Assembly (NCBI GenBank): GCA_002688165.1
Contig: NZCB01000006.1
Location: 25,097-31,224 of the forward strand
Length of the DNA stretch: 6,128 bases
From: Candidatus Pacearchaeota archaeon
GTDB lineage: Archaea; Nanobdellota; Nanobdellia; Pacearchaeales; GW2011-AR1
Direction of reading: 5' to 3'
Under the pieces are notes generated by a model, which saw nothing but the letters and a program-made list of their open reading frames with translations, made no database searches and was not told the DNA's origin. Within the stretch, counting starts at the first letter, position 1. Every line of letters starts with the position of its first letter. Below, piece by piece: positions 1,929 through 5,631 of the stretch. Both the position numbers and the translations under genes were made by a program.

Positions 1929-1941
1929 CCTTCTTATTAAA

Positions 1942-2016
1942 TGGTCCTGCACAGATTCGAACTGTGGACCCCTACCTTATCAGAGTAGTGCTCTAACCAG
2001 GCTGAGCTACAGGACC
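1942..2016 (-). tRNA. tRNA-Ile (anticodon GAU), 75 nt, no intron, CCA not encoded
   Basis: Manual cloverleaf on the minus strand:
- acceptor stem GGTCCTG / CAGGACC
- D arm GCTC-AGCCTGGTTA-GAGC
- anticodon stem CTACT / GGTAG (one G-U pair) with loop CTGATAA, giving anticodon GAT
- 5-nt variable loop GGGTC
- T arm CACAG-TTCGAAT-CTGTG
- discriminator A. Confidence 0.92.
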
Positions 2017-2039
2017 ATAGAATCTAGAATTATAATGGG

Positions 2040-3424: not shown

Positions 3425-4117
3425 ATGGGAGAAAACTTATTAGATACACGTAAGGATGAACTATCAAAAAGATATGGAATAGATTTTGATAAACTTGAAA
3501 AGGAACAAATAAAATTAGCTAAAGATTTAACTATTAAAGATAAAATTGATTTTTCTTTAGTAGATAGATTTGGAGCTGTAGAAAATATTTTTATAAAAAA
3601 TAAGATTTTAAGTTGTTTTATAGTGGTTGATAAAGATTTTGAGATAATTGACCAAGCTTATGCATTTGAGAGGATTCCCTTTCCATATTTTCCAGGATTT
3701 AGGGGATATAGGGAACTTCCTGCAATGATTAAAGCTCTAGAAAGGCTAAATGAGAAACCAGATATAGTTTTCATTTCAGCACAGGGTATAATTCATCCGA
3801 GATTAGGTTTAGCAAGTCATTTTGGATTGGTTACTAATATCCCTTCAGTAGGAGTTTCAAGTTCTTTGATAGAATGTGAAGCTTCAAATGAAGATGCATC
3901 AGAAATTATAAATGATAATGAAGTTGTTGGAAAGGTTTTGATAAGTAAGAAAGAGAGTAATCCTCTTTATATAAGTCCAGGGAATAATATAACTGTTAAC
4001 TCTTCATATGATATTAGTAAGAAACTTATTAGATTGCCCCATAAAAGGCCTGAGCCGATTCATATAGCTGCAAAATATGCGAGGAACGTTAAAAAAGAGT
4101 TAGTAATTGAAGATTAG
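3425..4117 (+). CDS. nfi: endonuclease V family protein with a divergent active site
   Basis: The 230-aa product carries the family motifs PYFPGFRGYRE (the PYIPG wedge plus the FRE glutamate), KPDIVF, QGIIHPRLGLASHFGL (compare GIAHPR..GIASH.G), IPSVGV, NPLYISPG and RPEP. The SD TAGGAG lies 6 nt upstream of the ATG. See the findings for the missing catalytic residues. Confidence 0.88.
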   Translation: MGENLLDTRKDELSKRYGIDFDKLEKEQIKLAKDLTIKDKIDFSLVDRFGAVENIFIKNKILSCFIVVDKDFEIIDQAYAFERIPFPYFPGFRGYRELPAMIKALERLNEKPDIVFISAQGIIHPRLGLASHFGLVTNIPSVGVSSSLIECEASNEDASEIINDNEVVGKVLISKKESNPLYISPGNNITVNSSYDISKKLIRLPHKRPEPIHIAAKYARNVKKELVIED

Positions 4118-4443
4118 GTGAATTCCTTTAATCTAGGTAGAAAGAAAATTGAACTTAAGATAAAAATGCAAAACCCTAGAAATCCTAGAAGTATATAATA
4201 AATTAAGTATGATTTTTCAGTGTATAATTCTTCTTGTTCTTCTTCTTGTTCTTCTTCTTCTTCTTGTTCTTCATCATCTATTGCCAATCCTGTTAATTTA
4301 TTTTTGGCATTTATATTTTGTTCAGAAATCCCCTCTTCAACTATGTTTGATAAATTAAAAGATATTAACATTAGAACTACTAATATTGAAATAAACATGA
4401 ATGAGTTATAATACTCACTATCATAAATTTTTAATTTATTCAT
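4114..4443 (-). CDS. two-TM membrane protein with a central poly-Glu/Gln acidic tract, function unknown
   Basis: 109-aa ORF with an N-terminal TM (FMFISILVVLMLISF), the tract DDEEQEEEEEQEEEQEE, and a C-terminal TM (YLIYYILLGFLGFCIFILSSIFFL) followed by PRLKEFT. A strong SD, AGGAGG (complement of 4449-4454), lies 5 nt upstream of the ATG, and the ATG overlaps the stop of the upstream AbrB-like ORF. Confidence 0.65.
   Translation of the reverse strand: MNKLKIYDSEYYNSFMFISILVVLMLISFNLSNIVEEGISEQNINAKNKLTGLAIDDEEQEEEEEQEEEQEELYTEKSYLIYYILLGFLGFCIFILSSIFFLPRLKEFT
4228..4278 (-). repeat. in-frame triplet repeat: 17 consecutive GAA/CAA/GAT codons on the minus strand, TTC/TTG/ATC on plus
   Basis: The plus strand reads ttc ttc ttg ttc ttc ttc ttg ttc ttc ttc ttc ttc ttg ttc ttc atc atc. 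This encodes DDEEQEEEEEQEEEQEE within the 4114-4443 CDS. Confidence 0.9.
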
Positions 4444-4592
4444 TTGCCCCTCCTTATTTCATTAGTGTCTAAATTTATTGCTAAGAAATCTCCTTCATCG
4501 AGATCAAATCTATCTATGGTATCTTTGGGAATAGTGACTACAAAACTATTTCCTACCTTTCTCAATCTTACATCAAATTTTCTGTCATTCAT
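4440..4592 (-). CDS. SpoVT/AbrB-fold (MazE/VapB-like) DNA-binding mini-protein, 50 aa; absent from the supplied ORF track
   Basis: Manual minus-strand translation gives MNDRKFDVRLRKVGNSFVVTIPKDTIDRFDLDEGDFLAINLDTNEIRRGK*. The segment RKVGNSFVVTIPKD......L.EGD is the classic swapped-hairpin AbrB/MazE signature. The TGA stop (4442-4440) overlaps the ATG (4443-4441) of the next gene. Confidence 0.75.
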   Translation of the reverse strand: MNDRKFDVRLRKVGNSFVVTIPKDTIDRFDLDEGDFLAINLDTNEIRRGK

Positions 4593-4612
4593 TTTTTATT
4601 ATATTTATCTTC

Positions 4613-4629
4613 CTTAGAAATTTTCTAAG
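4613..4629. promoter_or_regulatory. 17-bp palindrome CTTAGAAA-T-TTTCTAAG, a candidate operator overlapping the expected TATA position of the AbrB-like operon
   Basis: The 8-bp arms are exact reverse complements. The centre (4621) is about 29 nt upstream of the ATG at 4592, the same spacing that TATA boxes show at other leaderless-looking genes in this window. Confidence 0.4.
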
Positions 4630-4661
4630 AAAAATAAAAACACTGGGGAAAATCCCCAGTG
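4630..4661 (-). terminator. GC-rich perfect hairpin (9-bp stem, 3-nt loop) followed on the minus strand by TTTTTATTTTT; terminator- or attenuator-like
   Basis: CACTGGGGA (4641-4649) and TCCCCAGTG (4653-4661) are exact reverse complements. The plus-strand AAAAATAAAAA at 4630-4640 reads as a T-tract immediately 3' of the hairpin on the minus strand. No minus-strand CDS lies upstream of it. Confidence 0.4.
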
Positions 4662-4682
4662 CACCTCTTTATCCCTTTCAGA

Positions 4683-4704
4683 GCTGTATATACTATGTAT
4701 ATAC
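4683..4704. repeat. operator-like module copy 1: GCTGTATATAC-TA-TGTATATAC, with two GTATATAC palindromes 11 bp apart
   Basis: GTATATAC occurs at 4686-4693 and 4697-4704. The 22-nt module recurs at 4744-4765 with 2 mismatches. Confidence 0.85.
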
Positions 4705-4706
4705 CC

Positions 4707-4716
4707 TATTTAAATA
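4707..4716. promoter_or_regulatory. palindromic TATA-like box TATTTAAATA, potentially bidirectional
   Basis: Perfect 10-bp palindrome. It is centred about 29 nt upstream of the ATG at 4741 on the plus strand. On the minus strand it is about 28 nt upstream of position ~4684. Confidence 0.35.
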
Positions 4717-4731
4717 TTTCTACAGGCGAAT

Positions 4732-5631
4732 ATGATTGAAATGGCTGTATATACATTGTATATACTATATATTTATAAAACTTTTTTTCTTAATATATTC
4801 AAGATGTGCTTTACACCAACAATATCTCTAACAACTGCAATAATAGAATTTCTCGTAGTTATTTACCTAATAAAACGAATTAAAGATAAAAGCCTAAGAG
4901 CCCTTCCTTGGATTATTTTAATTCTCGGATTATATCAATTAACTGAATTTTTTTTATGTACAACAAATAATCAGATATGGCCTAAATTAGGATTTATTAT
5001 GTATACTTTCTTACCTATTTTATTGATGCAATTGTTTTATGATTTATCTAATAAAAAATTAAATAAATTAACATATTTGGTTCCATTGACTTATGCGGCT
5101 ATTGCATTATTTTATCCTGGATTTAATATTTCTGCAACTTGTGAAACTTTTTTTCTAAATATTAAGAATTTATTTCTGTGGGGGAATAAGGCATTACTTT
5201 GGATTTATATATTATACTATGGACTATTTCCCTTATATGGAGCATATGTTTTTATTAATAATAAAAGTAAGATAAATGAAGAGAATAATCAAAAAATAAG
5301 GATTTGTTATATGTTGATTCCAGTAGCATTAATTTTGGCCCAGGCAATTTTAATTATAATGTTTAATAAAGTTAATAATTCTCCTATATGGATAGCAACA
5401 AGTGCGGTATTAATAATGGTCTCTATAATTTTAATGATTATGTCATTTACAAAAATAAAGATAAATGCGTTTAAAAATATATTATTAGTAGTTTTATTTG
5501 GTTCGGTAATGATGGCATATTTGTTATATCAGTTACTTCCAGAATTTGGAATAAGATTTGCATCAATTTATTGTCAATTCTCATTACTCTATGCAATAGC
5601 TGCAATTTTATATGTAGAATCAACTCATTAA
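4732..5631 (+). CDS. polytopic integral membrane protein (about 8 TM segments), function unknown; start codon ambiguous (4732, 4741 or 4804)
   Basis: The 299-aa ORF has many long hydrophobic stretches separated by short Lys/Asn-rich loops. I see no recognisable catalytic motif and almost no His. The first 24 codons are encoded by the duplicated operator and TATA module, so the true start is likely 4741 or 4804. Confidence 0.7.
   Translation: MIEMAVYTLYILYIYKTFFLNIFKMCFTPTISLTTAIIEFLVVIYLIKRIKDKSLRALPWIILILGLYQLTEFFLCTTNNQIWPKLGFIMYTFLPILLMQLFYDLSNKKLNKLTYLVPLTYAAIALFYPGFNISATCETFFLNIKNLFLWGNKALLWIYILYYGLFPLYGAYVFINNKSKINEENNQKIRICYMLIPVALILAQAILIIMFNKVNNSPIWIATSAVLIMVSIILMIMSFTKIKINAFKNILLVVLFGSVMMAYLLYQLLPEFGIRFASIYCQFSLLYAIAAILYVESTH
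4744..4765. repeat. operator-like module copy 2: GCTGTATATAC-AT-TGTATATAC
   Basis: GTATATAC occurs at 4747-4754 and 4758-4765, exactly 61 bp from copy 1. It is followed by the TATA-like TTTATAAAA at 4772-4780, which is about 28 nt upstream of the ATG at 4804. Confidence 0.85.

What the first reader, a model, noticed from the sequence alone, without database searches (positions are those of the whole stretch)
4683..4806. Tandemly duplicated ~61-bp promoter/operator unit carrying four GTATATAC palindromes at 11-bp phasing
The self-complementary octamer GTATATAC occurs four times, at 4686-4693, 4697-4704, 4747-4754 and 4758-4765. The copies form two pairs with exactly 11 bp (one helical turn) within each pair and 61 bp between pairs.

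Each pair sits in a 22-nt module (GCTGTATATAC-NN-TGTATATAC). Each module is followed by a TATA-like box (TATTTAAATA at 4707-4716, TTTATAAAA at 4772-4780), and each box is about 28 nt upstream of an in-frame ATG (4741 and 4804). The tails of the two units also resemble each other (AATATGATTGAAATG versus AATATATTCAAGATG). The whole region therefore looks like a degenerate tandem duplication of operator plus promoter plus start codon.

The second copy lies inside the tracked ORF that begins at 4732. The annotated N-terminus (MIEMAVYTLYILYIYKTFFLNIFK) may therefore be regulatory DNA rather than protein.

Same-face phased palindromes next to TATA boxes are what a dimeric or tetrameric archaeal repressor or activator site looks like. 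The divergently encoded AbrB-like protein is the obvious candidate ligand.
Basis: seen in the sequence. Interest (0 to 1): 0.62.

Follow-up and report, generated by a model that had tools for sequence, protein, structure and literature searches.

The report
Self-repressor binding sites at archaeal promoters
The four GTATATAC palindromes are real and conserved, and are almost certainly docking sites for the neighbouring 50-residue antitoxin-derived DNA-binding protein; a bacterial relative has been shown experimentally to bind the same sequence, here re-used on an archaeal TATA-box promoter.

Summary
GTATATAC occurs four times, at the stated coordinates. About 0.05 copies are expected in the window, and the whole 632-kb genome has only eight.

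The two GTATATAC-N3-GTATATAC modules belong to the 50-aa SpoVT/AbrB gene (4592-4440, minus strand), not to the 7TM gene. In 41 DPANN loci retrieved by protein alone, 56 such modules lie within 400 bp upstream of the abrB homologue. Only one lies in the other 100 kb.

Chloroflexi Phd-Doc homologues carry the same words. E. faecalis AbrB-type Phd was shown by EMSA and crystallography to bind TGTATATACA through K8/R10/N14. The window protein has the same hairpin (RLRKVGNS).

Module 1 sits between a palindromic TATA box (4707-4716) and the inferred minus-strand start (~4685). That is the position of an archaeal autorepressor site. Module 2 abuts a second palindromic TATA box (4772-4779), which lies 24 nt before ATG 4804, the true start of the 7TM protein.

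A conserved, covarying 5' leader RNA follows module 1 on the minus strand.

It was wrong about strand and about the ATG at 4741. This is a new variant of a known kind.

The parts
4686..4704 (.). Module 1: two TGTATATAC palindromes (4686-4693 and 4697-4704) with centres 11 bp apart. Core autoregulatory operator lying between the TATA box and the inferred minus-strand transcription start.
   Evidence: The same 19-bp module sits 1-4 nt downstream of the TATA box in every proximal abrB promoter examined. A homologue binds TGTATATACA.
4747..4765 (.). Module 2: second pair of palindromes (4747-4754 and 4758-4765). Either an auxiliary operator or a tandem promoter-operator cassette. It lies 6 bp from TATA box 2.
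   Evidence: It is conserved in L001, L003, L005, L007 and L010 at variable distance from module 1.
4707..4716 (-). TATA box 1, the perfect palindrome TATTTAAATA. On the minus strand TTTAAATA runs 4714->4707. Inferred promoter of the abrB operon.
   Evidence: Read from the sequence. TTTAAATA or TTTATAAA with an A-rich upstream tract is present in all DPANN abrB promoters examined.
4717..4723 (-). BRE-like purine/A-rich tract (minus strand GTAGAAA) directly upstream of TATA box 1 in the abrB direction.
   Evidence: The 8 nt on this side are 59% A across 22 non-redundant promoters. Inferred, not measured.
4630..4685 (-). Conserved 5' leader RNA of the abrB transcript. Inferred start at A4685 or G4684. 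An invariant 26 nt (AGCUCUGAAAGGGAUAAAGAGGUGCAC) contains helix 1 (4680-4685 with 4663-4668). A covarying GC-rich hairpin follows at 4640-4662.
   Evidence: Invariant block and covariation. Fold z-score -6.4. One strong hit (E below 1e-18) of model R1 in each of 8 relatives, and the three checked against module coordinates all lie beside a module. No Rfam family matches.
4604..4638 (-). Third, AU-rich hairpin in the leader. It pairs a U-rich arm with a purine-rich AAGGAAG arm.
   Evidence: (I2). By eye, pairing is kept with changed sequence in L003, L005 and L007.
4440..4592 (-). 50-aa SpoVT/AbrB-type protein, related to the Phd/doc_partner family but lacking the tail. Proposed ligand of the octamers.
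   Evidence: PF04014 at 29.8 bits, above the 24.7 cutoff. TIGR02609 at 41.6 bits covering only profile positions 2-40 of 74. PDB hits to Sso7c4 and EFPhd. 54% identity to Chloroflexi Phd.
4114..4443 (-). Small membrane protein gene overlapping the abrB stop by 4 nt (ATGA). Second gene of the autoregulated operon.
   Evidence: A homologous partner is present in most DPANN loci.
4772..4779 (.). TATA box 2, the perfect palindrome TTTATAAA. Its end lies 24 nt before ATG 4804, so it fits a leaderless 7TM promoter. It also has an A-rich BRE-like tract on its right, facing the abrB direction.
   Evidence: The TATA-to-ATG distance is 24-25 nt in L003, L005 and L007. A 7TM homologue without abrB keeps the TATA but has no operator (L093).
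4804..5631 (+). 7TM membrane protein with a corrected start (MCFTP...). Positions 4732-4803 are promoter and operator DNA, not coding sequence.
   Evidence: Homologues are 276-285 aa and carry MCFTP at or within 6 residues of the N-terminus. Some hit PF16927.

Best explanation
Each TGTATATAC palindrome is a binding site for one dimer of the 50-aa AbrB-type protein encoded at 4592-4440. This protein is a Phd-family antitoxin DNA-binding domain that has lost its toxin-binding tail and its Doc partner.

Two dimers sit on the same face of the helix in each 19-bp module, because the palindrome centres are 11 bp apart.

Module 1 (4686-4704) fills the space between TATA box 1 (minus strand 4714->4707) and the minus-strand transcription start at about A4685. 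Bound protein would therefore block RNA polymerase recruitment or promoter opening. The result is autorepression of the operon, which consists of the structured leader RNA, abrB and the small membrane protein gene.

Module 2 (4747-4765) is a second copy of the same cassette, 61 bp further upstream. It abuts the palindromic TATA box 2, which also serves the divergent, leaderless 7TM gene (true start 4804). Module 2 reinforces repression of abrB, either as an auxiliary operator or as a tandem promoter. It may also couple the 7TM gene to the same switch.

Shown: the sites, their conservation, their linkage to the abrB gene, and the identity of the DNA-contact hairpin with a homologue proven to bind this sequence.

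Inferred: the transcription starts, the direction of the TATA boxes, repression rather than activation, and the stoichiometry.
For: 1. Statistics. There are four exact octamers against 0.05 expected. The genome holds only two modules, both here. In the 7 of 41 genomes (G000 included) that carry an exact module, there are at most two and they lie at one locus.

2. Linkage to abrB across DPANN. In 41 loci retrieved through the protein alone, 56 modules fall in 15.9 kb upstream of abrB and 1 in 100.6 kb elsewhere, about 237-fold enrichment. The gene on the other side varies: 7TM, MetRS, a 1042-aa protein, or ligase. 7TM homologues away from abrB have no operator.

3. Conservation across domains. 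Chloroflexi homologues (71-72 aa, each followed by a Doc toxin gene) carry GTATAYAC words between promoter and SD, with 52-fold enrichment.

4. Experiment on a homologue. The EFPhd(1-55) dimer binds 5'-TGTATATACA-3' by EMSA, SEC and crystal structure, and a K8/R10/N14 triple mutant loses binding (PMC13034048). The window protein has RLRKVGNS against EFPhd KLRKVGNS.

5. Geometry. The proximal module always lies 1-4 nt after TTTAAATA or TTTATAAA. It is followed by A in 18 of 22 promoters, and an A-rich tract lies upstream of the TATA box. Many orthologues are leaderless, with the ATG directly after the operator.

6. Strand. The conserved hairpin just downstream keeps 100% standard pairs only on the abrB strand, where G-U pairs occur that would be A-C mismatches on the other strand.
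Against:
- Homology to EFPhd is short: 20 aligned residues, E 0.0025. The monomer model (pLDDT 71.5) gave no significant fold match.
- The E. faecalis protein recognises a single palindrome, not phased pairs.
- The position of module 2, just upstream of the BRE and TATA of the 7TM promoter, would also fit an activator site.
- Both TATA boxes are perfect palindromes, so their direction is inferred only from flanking composition and from conservation.
- Module-to-module distances are not helically phased, so looping between modules is not supported.
Confidence: 0.78

Rival explanations
1. Module 2 exists mainly to control the divergent 7TM gene. The AbrB-type protein bound at -37 to -55 relative to the leaderless start would either recruit TFB and TBP (activation) or clash with them (repression). 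On this view 7TM is the real regulatory target and the region is a two-gene divergon.
For: - TATA box 2 lies 24-25 nt before the 7TM ATG in W, L003, L005 and L007.
- Module 2 is kept 6 bp from that TATA box in all four.
- A site just upstream of BRE and TATA is the usual position of archaeal activators (general knowledge of Ptr2 and TFB-RF1).
- The plus-direction BRE is weak.
Against: - Distal modules occur just as often where no 7TM gene is present (L008-L012, L014, L015, L028, L030, L033, L039). They often have their own A-rich BRE and TATA in the abrB orientation.
- 7TM homologues away from abrB keep the TATA box but have no operator.
- In L010 the module is retained although 7TM has been replaced by another gene.
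Confidence: 0.4
2. Both units are rightward promoters with an upstream operator, giving starts near 4741 and 4804.
For: - Both TATA boxes are palindromic, so they could fire rightward.
- ATG 4741 lies 24 nt after TATA box 1.
Against: - ATG 4741 and the short frame behind it are not conserved.
- The A-rich BRE-like tract of TATA box 1 lies on the minus-direction side in all orthologues.
- A conserved, strand-specific RNA begins on the minus strand right after module 1.
Confidence: 0.08
3. The octamers are bound by a different, unlinked transcription factor, and the AbrB-like gene is only a regulated neighbour.
For: No binding data exist for this protein.
Against: - Gene and operator travel together across DPANN lineages and into Chloroflexi, despite entirely different promoter types.
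- A homologue with the same contact residues binds the same decamer in vitro.
Confidence: 0.06
4. The element is not a protein operator. It could be a (TA)n low-complexity artefact, an RNA hairpin formed by adjacent self-complementary octamers, or a replication-origin repeat.
For: - The genome is AT-rich.
- Two adjacent octamers could fold into an 8-bp hairpin if transcribed.
- The nearby hairpin contains CCAGTG, which is vaguely ORB-like.
Against: - There are only 8 octamers in 632 kb and no other module.
- The arms are sequence-invariant across loci with no covariation, whereas the neighbouring true RNA hairpin covaries in the same loci.
- No orc1/cdc6 gene is adjacent, and the motif follows abrB even in bacteria.
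Confidence: 0.03

Closest known systems
[quoted passage not shown]
   Same: - The DNA-contact hairpin is the same: (K/R)LRKVGNS, with K8, R10 and N14 matching R9, R11 and N15 here.
- The operator core is the same, TGTATATAC(A).
- The operator sits at the protein's own promoter, giving autoregulation by a dimer that reads about 8 bp.
   Different: - This protein stops at residue 50, so it has no Doc-binding tail.
- No Doc/Fic gene is next to it, and none was found in the 74%-complete genome.
- The partner gene encodes a small membrane protein.
- Operators come as phased pairs, two modules per locus, rather than a single palindrome.
- The promoter is an archaeal TATA/BRE type.
- A structured leader RNA follows.
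Chloroflexi Phd(AbrB-type)-Doc toxin-antitoxin loci (L045-L087)
   Same: - 54% identity over the DNA-binding domain.
- GTATAYAC words at roughly 11-bp spacing lie between promoter and start codon.
   Different: - These are bacterial sigma-70-type promoters with an SD.
- The antitoxin is 71-72 aa and has the tail.
- A Doc toxin gene is present downstream.
Sso7c4 (Sulfolobus SpoVT/AbrB mini-protein; PDB 2l66, 5itj, 5itm)
   Same: It is an archaeal, roughly 50-aa, single-domain AbrB-fold dimer, and it is the best PDB sequence match (E about 1e-4).
   Different: Sso7c4 is described as a general chromatin or DNA-bending protein with no defined operator. The GNS hairpin motif is not shared (KVSRNY in Sso7c4).
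Archaeal repressors that bind between TATA and the transcription start (for example MDR1, LrpA, Phr)
   Same: The operator position, -2 to -20 downstream of TATA, predicts a block of RNA polymerase recruitment after TBP and TFB have bound.
   Different: The protein fold is unrelated (swapped-hairpin AbrB rather than wHTH or DtxR). The mechanism here is inferred from geometry only.

Membership tests
SpoVT/AbrB (MazE-type) DNA-binding domain, PF04014 | Profile match above the curated threshold | tested here: met
   29.8 bits against a cutoff of 24.7, E 6e-7
SpoVT/AbrB swapped-hairpin fold | Predicted 3D fold matches solved AbrB, MazE or Sso7c4 structures | tested here: inconclusive
   The monomer model has pLDDT 71.5 and shows a beta-hairpin followed by a helix. 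The top Foldseek hits are RIFT, MazE, VapB and Sso7c4 chains, but none reaches E <= 0.001. The fold is an intertwined dimer, which could not be modelled here.
AbrB-type Phd / doc_partner antitoxin (TIGR02609; EFPhd) | N-terminal DNA-binding hairpin with the contact residues K8, R10 and N14 | tested here: met
   RLRKVGNS against EFPhd KLRKVGNS. R11 and N15 are invariant in 8 DPANN sequences (residues named).
AbrB-type Phd / doc_partner antitoxin (TIGR02609; EFPhd) | Cognate operator TGTATATACA at its own promoter | tested here: met
   There are four TGTATATAC copies upstream of the gene. Binding by this particular protein was not tested.
AbrB-type Phd / doc_partner antitoxin (TIGR02609; EFPhd) | C-terminal toxin-binding tail, that is, a full-length profile match | tested here: not met
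   The protein ends at residue 50. TIGR02609 scores 41.6 bits, below the 55.9 cutoff, and covers only profile positions 2-40 of 74.
Phd-Doc type II toxin-antitoxin module | Doc/Fic toxin gene immediately downstream | tested here: not met
   The downstream gene is a 109-aa membrane protein. PF02661 has no match in the 74%-complete genome. Chloroflexi homologues do have Doc.
Archaeal TATA-proximal repressor operator | Site lies between the TATA box and the transcription start of the regulated gene | tested here: inconclusive
   The geometry fits: TATA, then a 2-nt gap, then the 19-bp module, then A.
Known RNA families (Rfam 15), tested for the leader | Covariance-model match | tested here: not met
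   Only the tRNA at 1942-2016 was found at E <= 1.

The most novel reading that the evidence does not exclude
The 5' leader begins exactly where module 1 ends. It consists of an invariant 26 nt with an SD-like GGGAUAAAGAGGUG loop, followed by a covarying GC hairpin. It may be a previously undescribed cis-regulatory RNA of Pacearchaeota-type DPANN archaea that adds a post-transcriptional layer to the circuit, for example premature termination at the following U-tract, a ribosome stand-by site, or a protein-binding site. If so, a domesticated, toxin-less antitoxin would be controlled at both the DNA and the RNA level, and the same protein-DNA code would work under bacterial and archaeal transcription machineries.
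Probability: 0.3. Interest if true: 0.65.

Novelty: new variant of a known kind. Interest (0 to 1): 0.5.

Why it matters
Almost nothing is known about gene regulation in DPANN archaea. They cannot be grown alone and have very few transcription factors. This locus offers a complete circuit that can be tested directly, because three things are defined here or by a characterised homologue:
- the operator sequence;
- the residues that contact the DNA;
- the promoter geometry.

It also shows that a repressor and its operator, a pair normally found in bacterial toxin-antitoxin modules, can lose the toxin and be re-mounted on a TATA-box promoter with the recognition code unchanged.

On the practical side, it corrects the start of the 7TM gene by 24 codons. 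It also flags an unannotated conserved leader RNA.

Tried and rejected
- (TA)n artefact. Rejected by genome-wide counts.
- A regulon elsewhere in the genome. None was found: no other module in G000, and in the 7 of 41 genomes (G000 included) that carry an exact module there are at most two, at one locus.
- Replication origin or ORB repeats. Rejected because no orc1/cdc6 gene is nearby and the motif follows abrB even in bacteria.
- Octamers acting as RNA hairpins. Rejected because the arms are invariant rather than covarying, in contrast with the leader hairpin.
- A known riboswitch or sRNA for the leader. There is no Rfam hit.
- A K-turn or K-loop in leader helix 1. By eye the tandem G-A pairs are not canonical, so this was dropped.
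- A small ORF behind the SD-like GAGGUG. There is no start codon, and the frame is not conserved.
- The leader hairpin as an obligatory terminator. The U-tract is absent in L009, L012 and L022.
- Helical phasing between modules 1 and 2. Distances range from 37 to 211 bp with no common phase.
- Fold-level confirmation. The Foldseek search gave no significant hit.
- Literature search for the bare octamer. It returned only primers and unrelated uses.

Full report
**Observation.** GTATATAC occurs at 4686, 4697, 4747 and 4758, exactly as reported.
- The window expectation is 0.05, and none of 200 shuffles reached four copies.
- The window lies in a 631,855-bp, 30.6%-GC, 74%-complete DPANN genome. 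That genome holds eight copies in total, against 4-6.6 expected from Markov models, and four of them sit within 80 bp here.
- A scan for octamer pairs at 9-13 bp spacing with up to two mismatches in total finds only these two modules in the genome.
- The 11-bp and 61-bp spacings, the TATA-like boxes at 4707-4716 and 4772-4779, and the ATGs at 4732, 4741 and 4804 are all correct.

**Surroundings.** The 139-bp intergenic region (4593-4731 as annotated) separates two genes.
- On the minus strand lies a 50-aa SpoVT/AbrB protein (4592-4440; PF04014 at 29.8 bits, above the 24.7 cutoff). Its stop overlaps the start of a 109-aa membrane protein gene (4443-4114).
- On the plus strand lies a polytopic membrane protein annotated from 4732.
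- Twelve homologues of that protein were examined. They are 276-285 aa, eleven begin MCFTP, and P0018 carries MCFTP after a 6-residue extension (MYINLI). The true start is therefore ATG 4804.
- The 24 'residues' MIEMAVYTLYILYIYKTFFLNIFK are the translated operator and TATA box.
- TATA box 2 (TTTATAAA, 4772-4779) ends 24 nt before ATG 4804. The same 24-25 nt distance holds in orthologues L003, L005 and L007. There is no SD, which indicates a leaderless mRNA.

**Which gene owns the operator.** Orthologous loci with 87%, 69% and 59% protein identity keep both modules.

A search with an invariant 24-mer beside module 1 found six more DPANN MAGs. In these the element always lies upstream of the abrB homologue. 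The gene on the far side varies: 7TM, MetRS, a 1042-aa protein, or DNA ligase.

To avoid circularity I then retrieved loci through the AbrB protein alone. Across 41 archaeal loci, 56 modules (two octamers 11 bp apart, up to three mismatches) lie within 400 bp upstream of abrB. Only one lies in the other 100.6 kb, and that one is at -403. The density ratio is about 237. The more distant Woesearchaeota loci fall just outside this criterion but still read TTTAAATATATACAAAATATATCTTTTGTATATAC-ATG.

Conversely, 7TM homologues that are not next to abrB (L093, L095) keep a TATA box 21-25 nt before the ATG but have no octamer.

Among 40 relatives plus this genome, 7 of the 41 carry exact modules. Each has at most two, always at one locus.

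The operator is therefore a property of the abrB gene, and the circuit is local.

**Who binds it.** The 33 bacterial relatives analysed are mostly Chloroflexi; the six whose ORFs I read encode a 71-72-aa protein whose N-terminal domain is 54% identical to the window protein. A Doc toxin gene (FLDGNKR motif) follows immediately.
- In these high-GC genomes, GTATAY/RTATAC words are 52-fold enriched in the 170 bp around the antitoxin start. They often occur as GTATAC-N3-GTATATAC.
- The closest solved structures include the E. faecalis 'addiction module antidote' 9vx7, 9vyb and 9vzc.
- The paper describing those structures (PMC13034048) shows by SEC, EMSA and crystallography that the EFPhd(1-55) dimer binds Oln1, 5'-TGTATATACA-3'.
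- The same paper reports that the dimer reads about 8 bp through its beta-hairpins, and that a K8A/R10A/N14A mutant no longer binds.
- The aligned hairpin is KLRKVGNS in EFPhd and RLRKVGNS here, with R11 and N15 invariant in the DPANN set.
- All four window sites read TGTATATAC.

It has not been tested for this protein itself.

**Promoter geometry (inferred).**
- In every proximal abrB promoter examined, the order in the abrB direction is the same: an A-rich tract, then TTTAAATA or TTTATAAA, then a 1-4 nt gap (2 nt in 15 of 22), then the 19-bp module, then A (18 of 22).
- With a TATA 8-mer at -30 to -23, the nucleotide after the module is +1.
- In the window this places the minus-strand start at A4685 or G4684 and the operator at about -2 to -20. 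That is the position from which archaeal repressors exclude RNA polymerase.
- Many orthologues are leaderless, with the ATG directly after the operator. This independently supports that start position.
- TATA box 1 is a perfect palindrome, but its A-rich flank (GTAGAAA on the minus strand) lies on the abrB side.
- ATG 4741 is not conserved.

**Leader RNA.** From the inferred start, 26 nt are invariant in loci whose proteins are only 55-70% identical. A GC-rich hairpin follows.
- The hairpin covaries: CACUGGGG/CCCCAGUG changes to CACUAAGGG/CCCUUAGUG.
- All 180 pair cells are standard pairs on the abrB strand. These include interior G-U pairs that would be A-C mismatches on the other strand.
- None of 500 shuffles reached the observed covariation.
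- The 97-nt leader folds with z = -6.4.
- A covariance model finds one strong hit (E below 1e-18) in each of 8 relatives. In the three checked against module coordinates (G000, G007, G013) the hit lies beside a module.
- Rfam has no match.
- Divergent loci have a looser version (AGGGAAAAGGAGUGUG plus a hairpin) or no leader at all.
- Its function is unknown. It confirms the transcribed strand and is recorded as a separate lead.

**Module 2.** In the abrB direction it reads GAAAAAAAG-TTTTATAAA-TATATA-[module]-AGCC. This is the same cassette as module 1 with a 6-nt gap.
- Other lineages have clear tandem cassettes in that orientation, each with its own A-rich tract and TATA. These are L014, L015, L028, L030 (three copies at a 68-70 bp period), L033, L039 and L043.
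- In the window clade the palindromic TATA box of this cassette coincides with the leaderless 7TM promoter. The protein bound at -37 to -55 could then also repress or activate the 7TM gene.
- I rate co-regulation of 7TM at about 0.4.
- Distances between modules range from 37 to 211 bp without a common helical phase, so strict looping is unlikely.

**Comparison with known systems.** The pair works like, and is homologous to, the AbrB-type Phd operator system. It fails two defining features of a Phd-Doc module.
- It has no C-terminal tail. TIGR02609 covers only profile positions 2-40 of 74 and scores 41.6 bits, below the 55.9 cutoff.
- It has no Doc gene. PF02661 is not found in the genome.

It also differs from the E. 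faecalis system in using phased double palindromes in two modules on an archaeal promoter. A monomer AlphaFold model (pLDDT 71.5) shows the hairpin-helix start of the fold but gave no significant Foldseek match.

**Verdict.** This is a real, conserved, cross-domain repressor-operator pair. It is a new variant of a known kind and of moderate interest.

The main uncertainties are the unmapped transcription starts, the role of module 2 at the 7TM promoter, and the function of the leader RNA.

Noticed in passing
window 4630-4685 (minus strand): A conserved leader begins with an invariant 26 nt (AGCUCUGAAAGGGAUAAAGAGGUGCAC), followed by a covarying GC hairpin. A covariance model gives one strong hit in each of 8 relatives, beside a module where checked, and there is no Rfam family. 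The SD-like loop has no start codon behind it.
   Followed up: partly
window 4604-4638 (minus strand): A long AU-rich third hairpin in the leader pairs a U-tract with AAGGAAG. By eye the pairing is kept with different sequence in L003, L005 and L007. It could switch between a terminator-like U-tract and an antiterminator.
   Followed up: no
L030 (= L008) positions about -252, -184 and -114 relative to abrB: Three near-identical promoter-operator cassettes (aaaacaTTTAAATAtaGTATATACTTTGTATATAC) repeat at a 68-70 bp period. This points to recurrent tandem amplification of the whole unit.
   Followed up: partly
L045-L087 (Chloroflexi loci): Phd(AbrB-type)-Doc modules in high-GC Chloroflexi carry GTATAC-N3-GTATATAC-type operators between the -10 region and the SD. 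This is the same recognition code as in DPANN archaea and E. faecalis.
   Followed up: partly
window 4804-5631 and homologues P0003-P0022: In all twelve 7TM homologues examined the sequence MCFTP lies at or within 6 residues of the N-terminus (eleven begin with it), and the Cys after the Met is conserved. Some members hit PF16927 (HisKA_7TM), yet none has a kinase domain. The function is unknown.
   Followed up: no
L011 (= L018), about 60-110 nt beyond module 2: AAAATGTGACATTGC follows a TATA-like box at the position where the 7TM gene starts in the window clade, and the ligase gene follows soon after. This may be a remnant of a deleted 7TM gene.
   Followed up: no
window 1941-2017 (minus strand): tRNA-Ile(GAT), found by both ARAGORN and Rfam. 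It is unrelated to this finding.
   Followed up: yes
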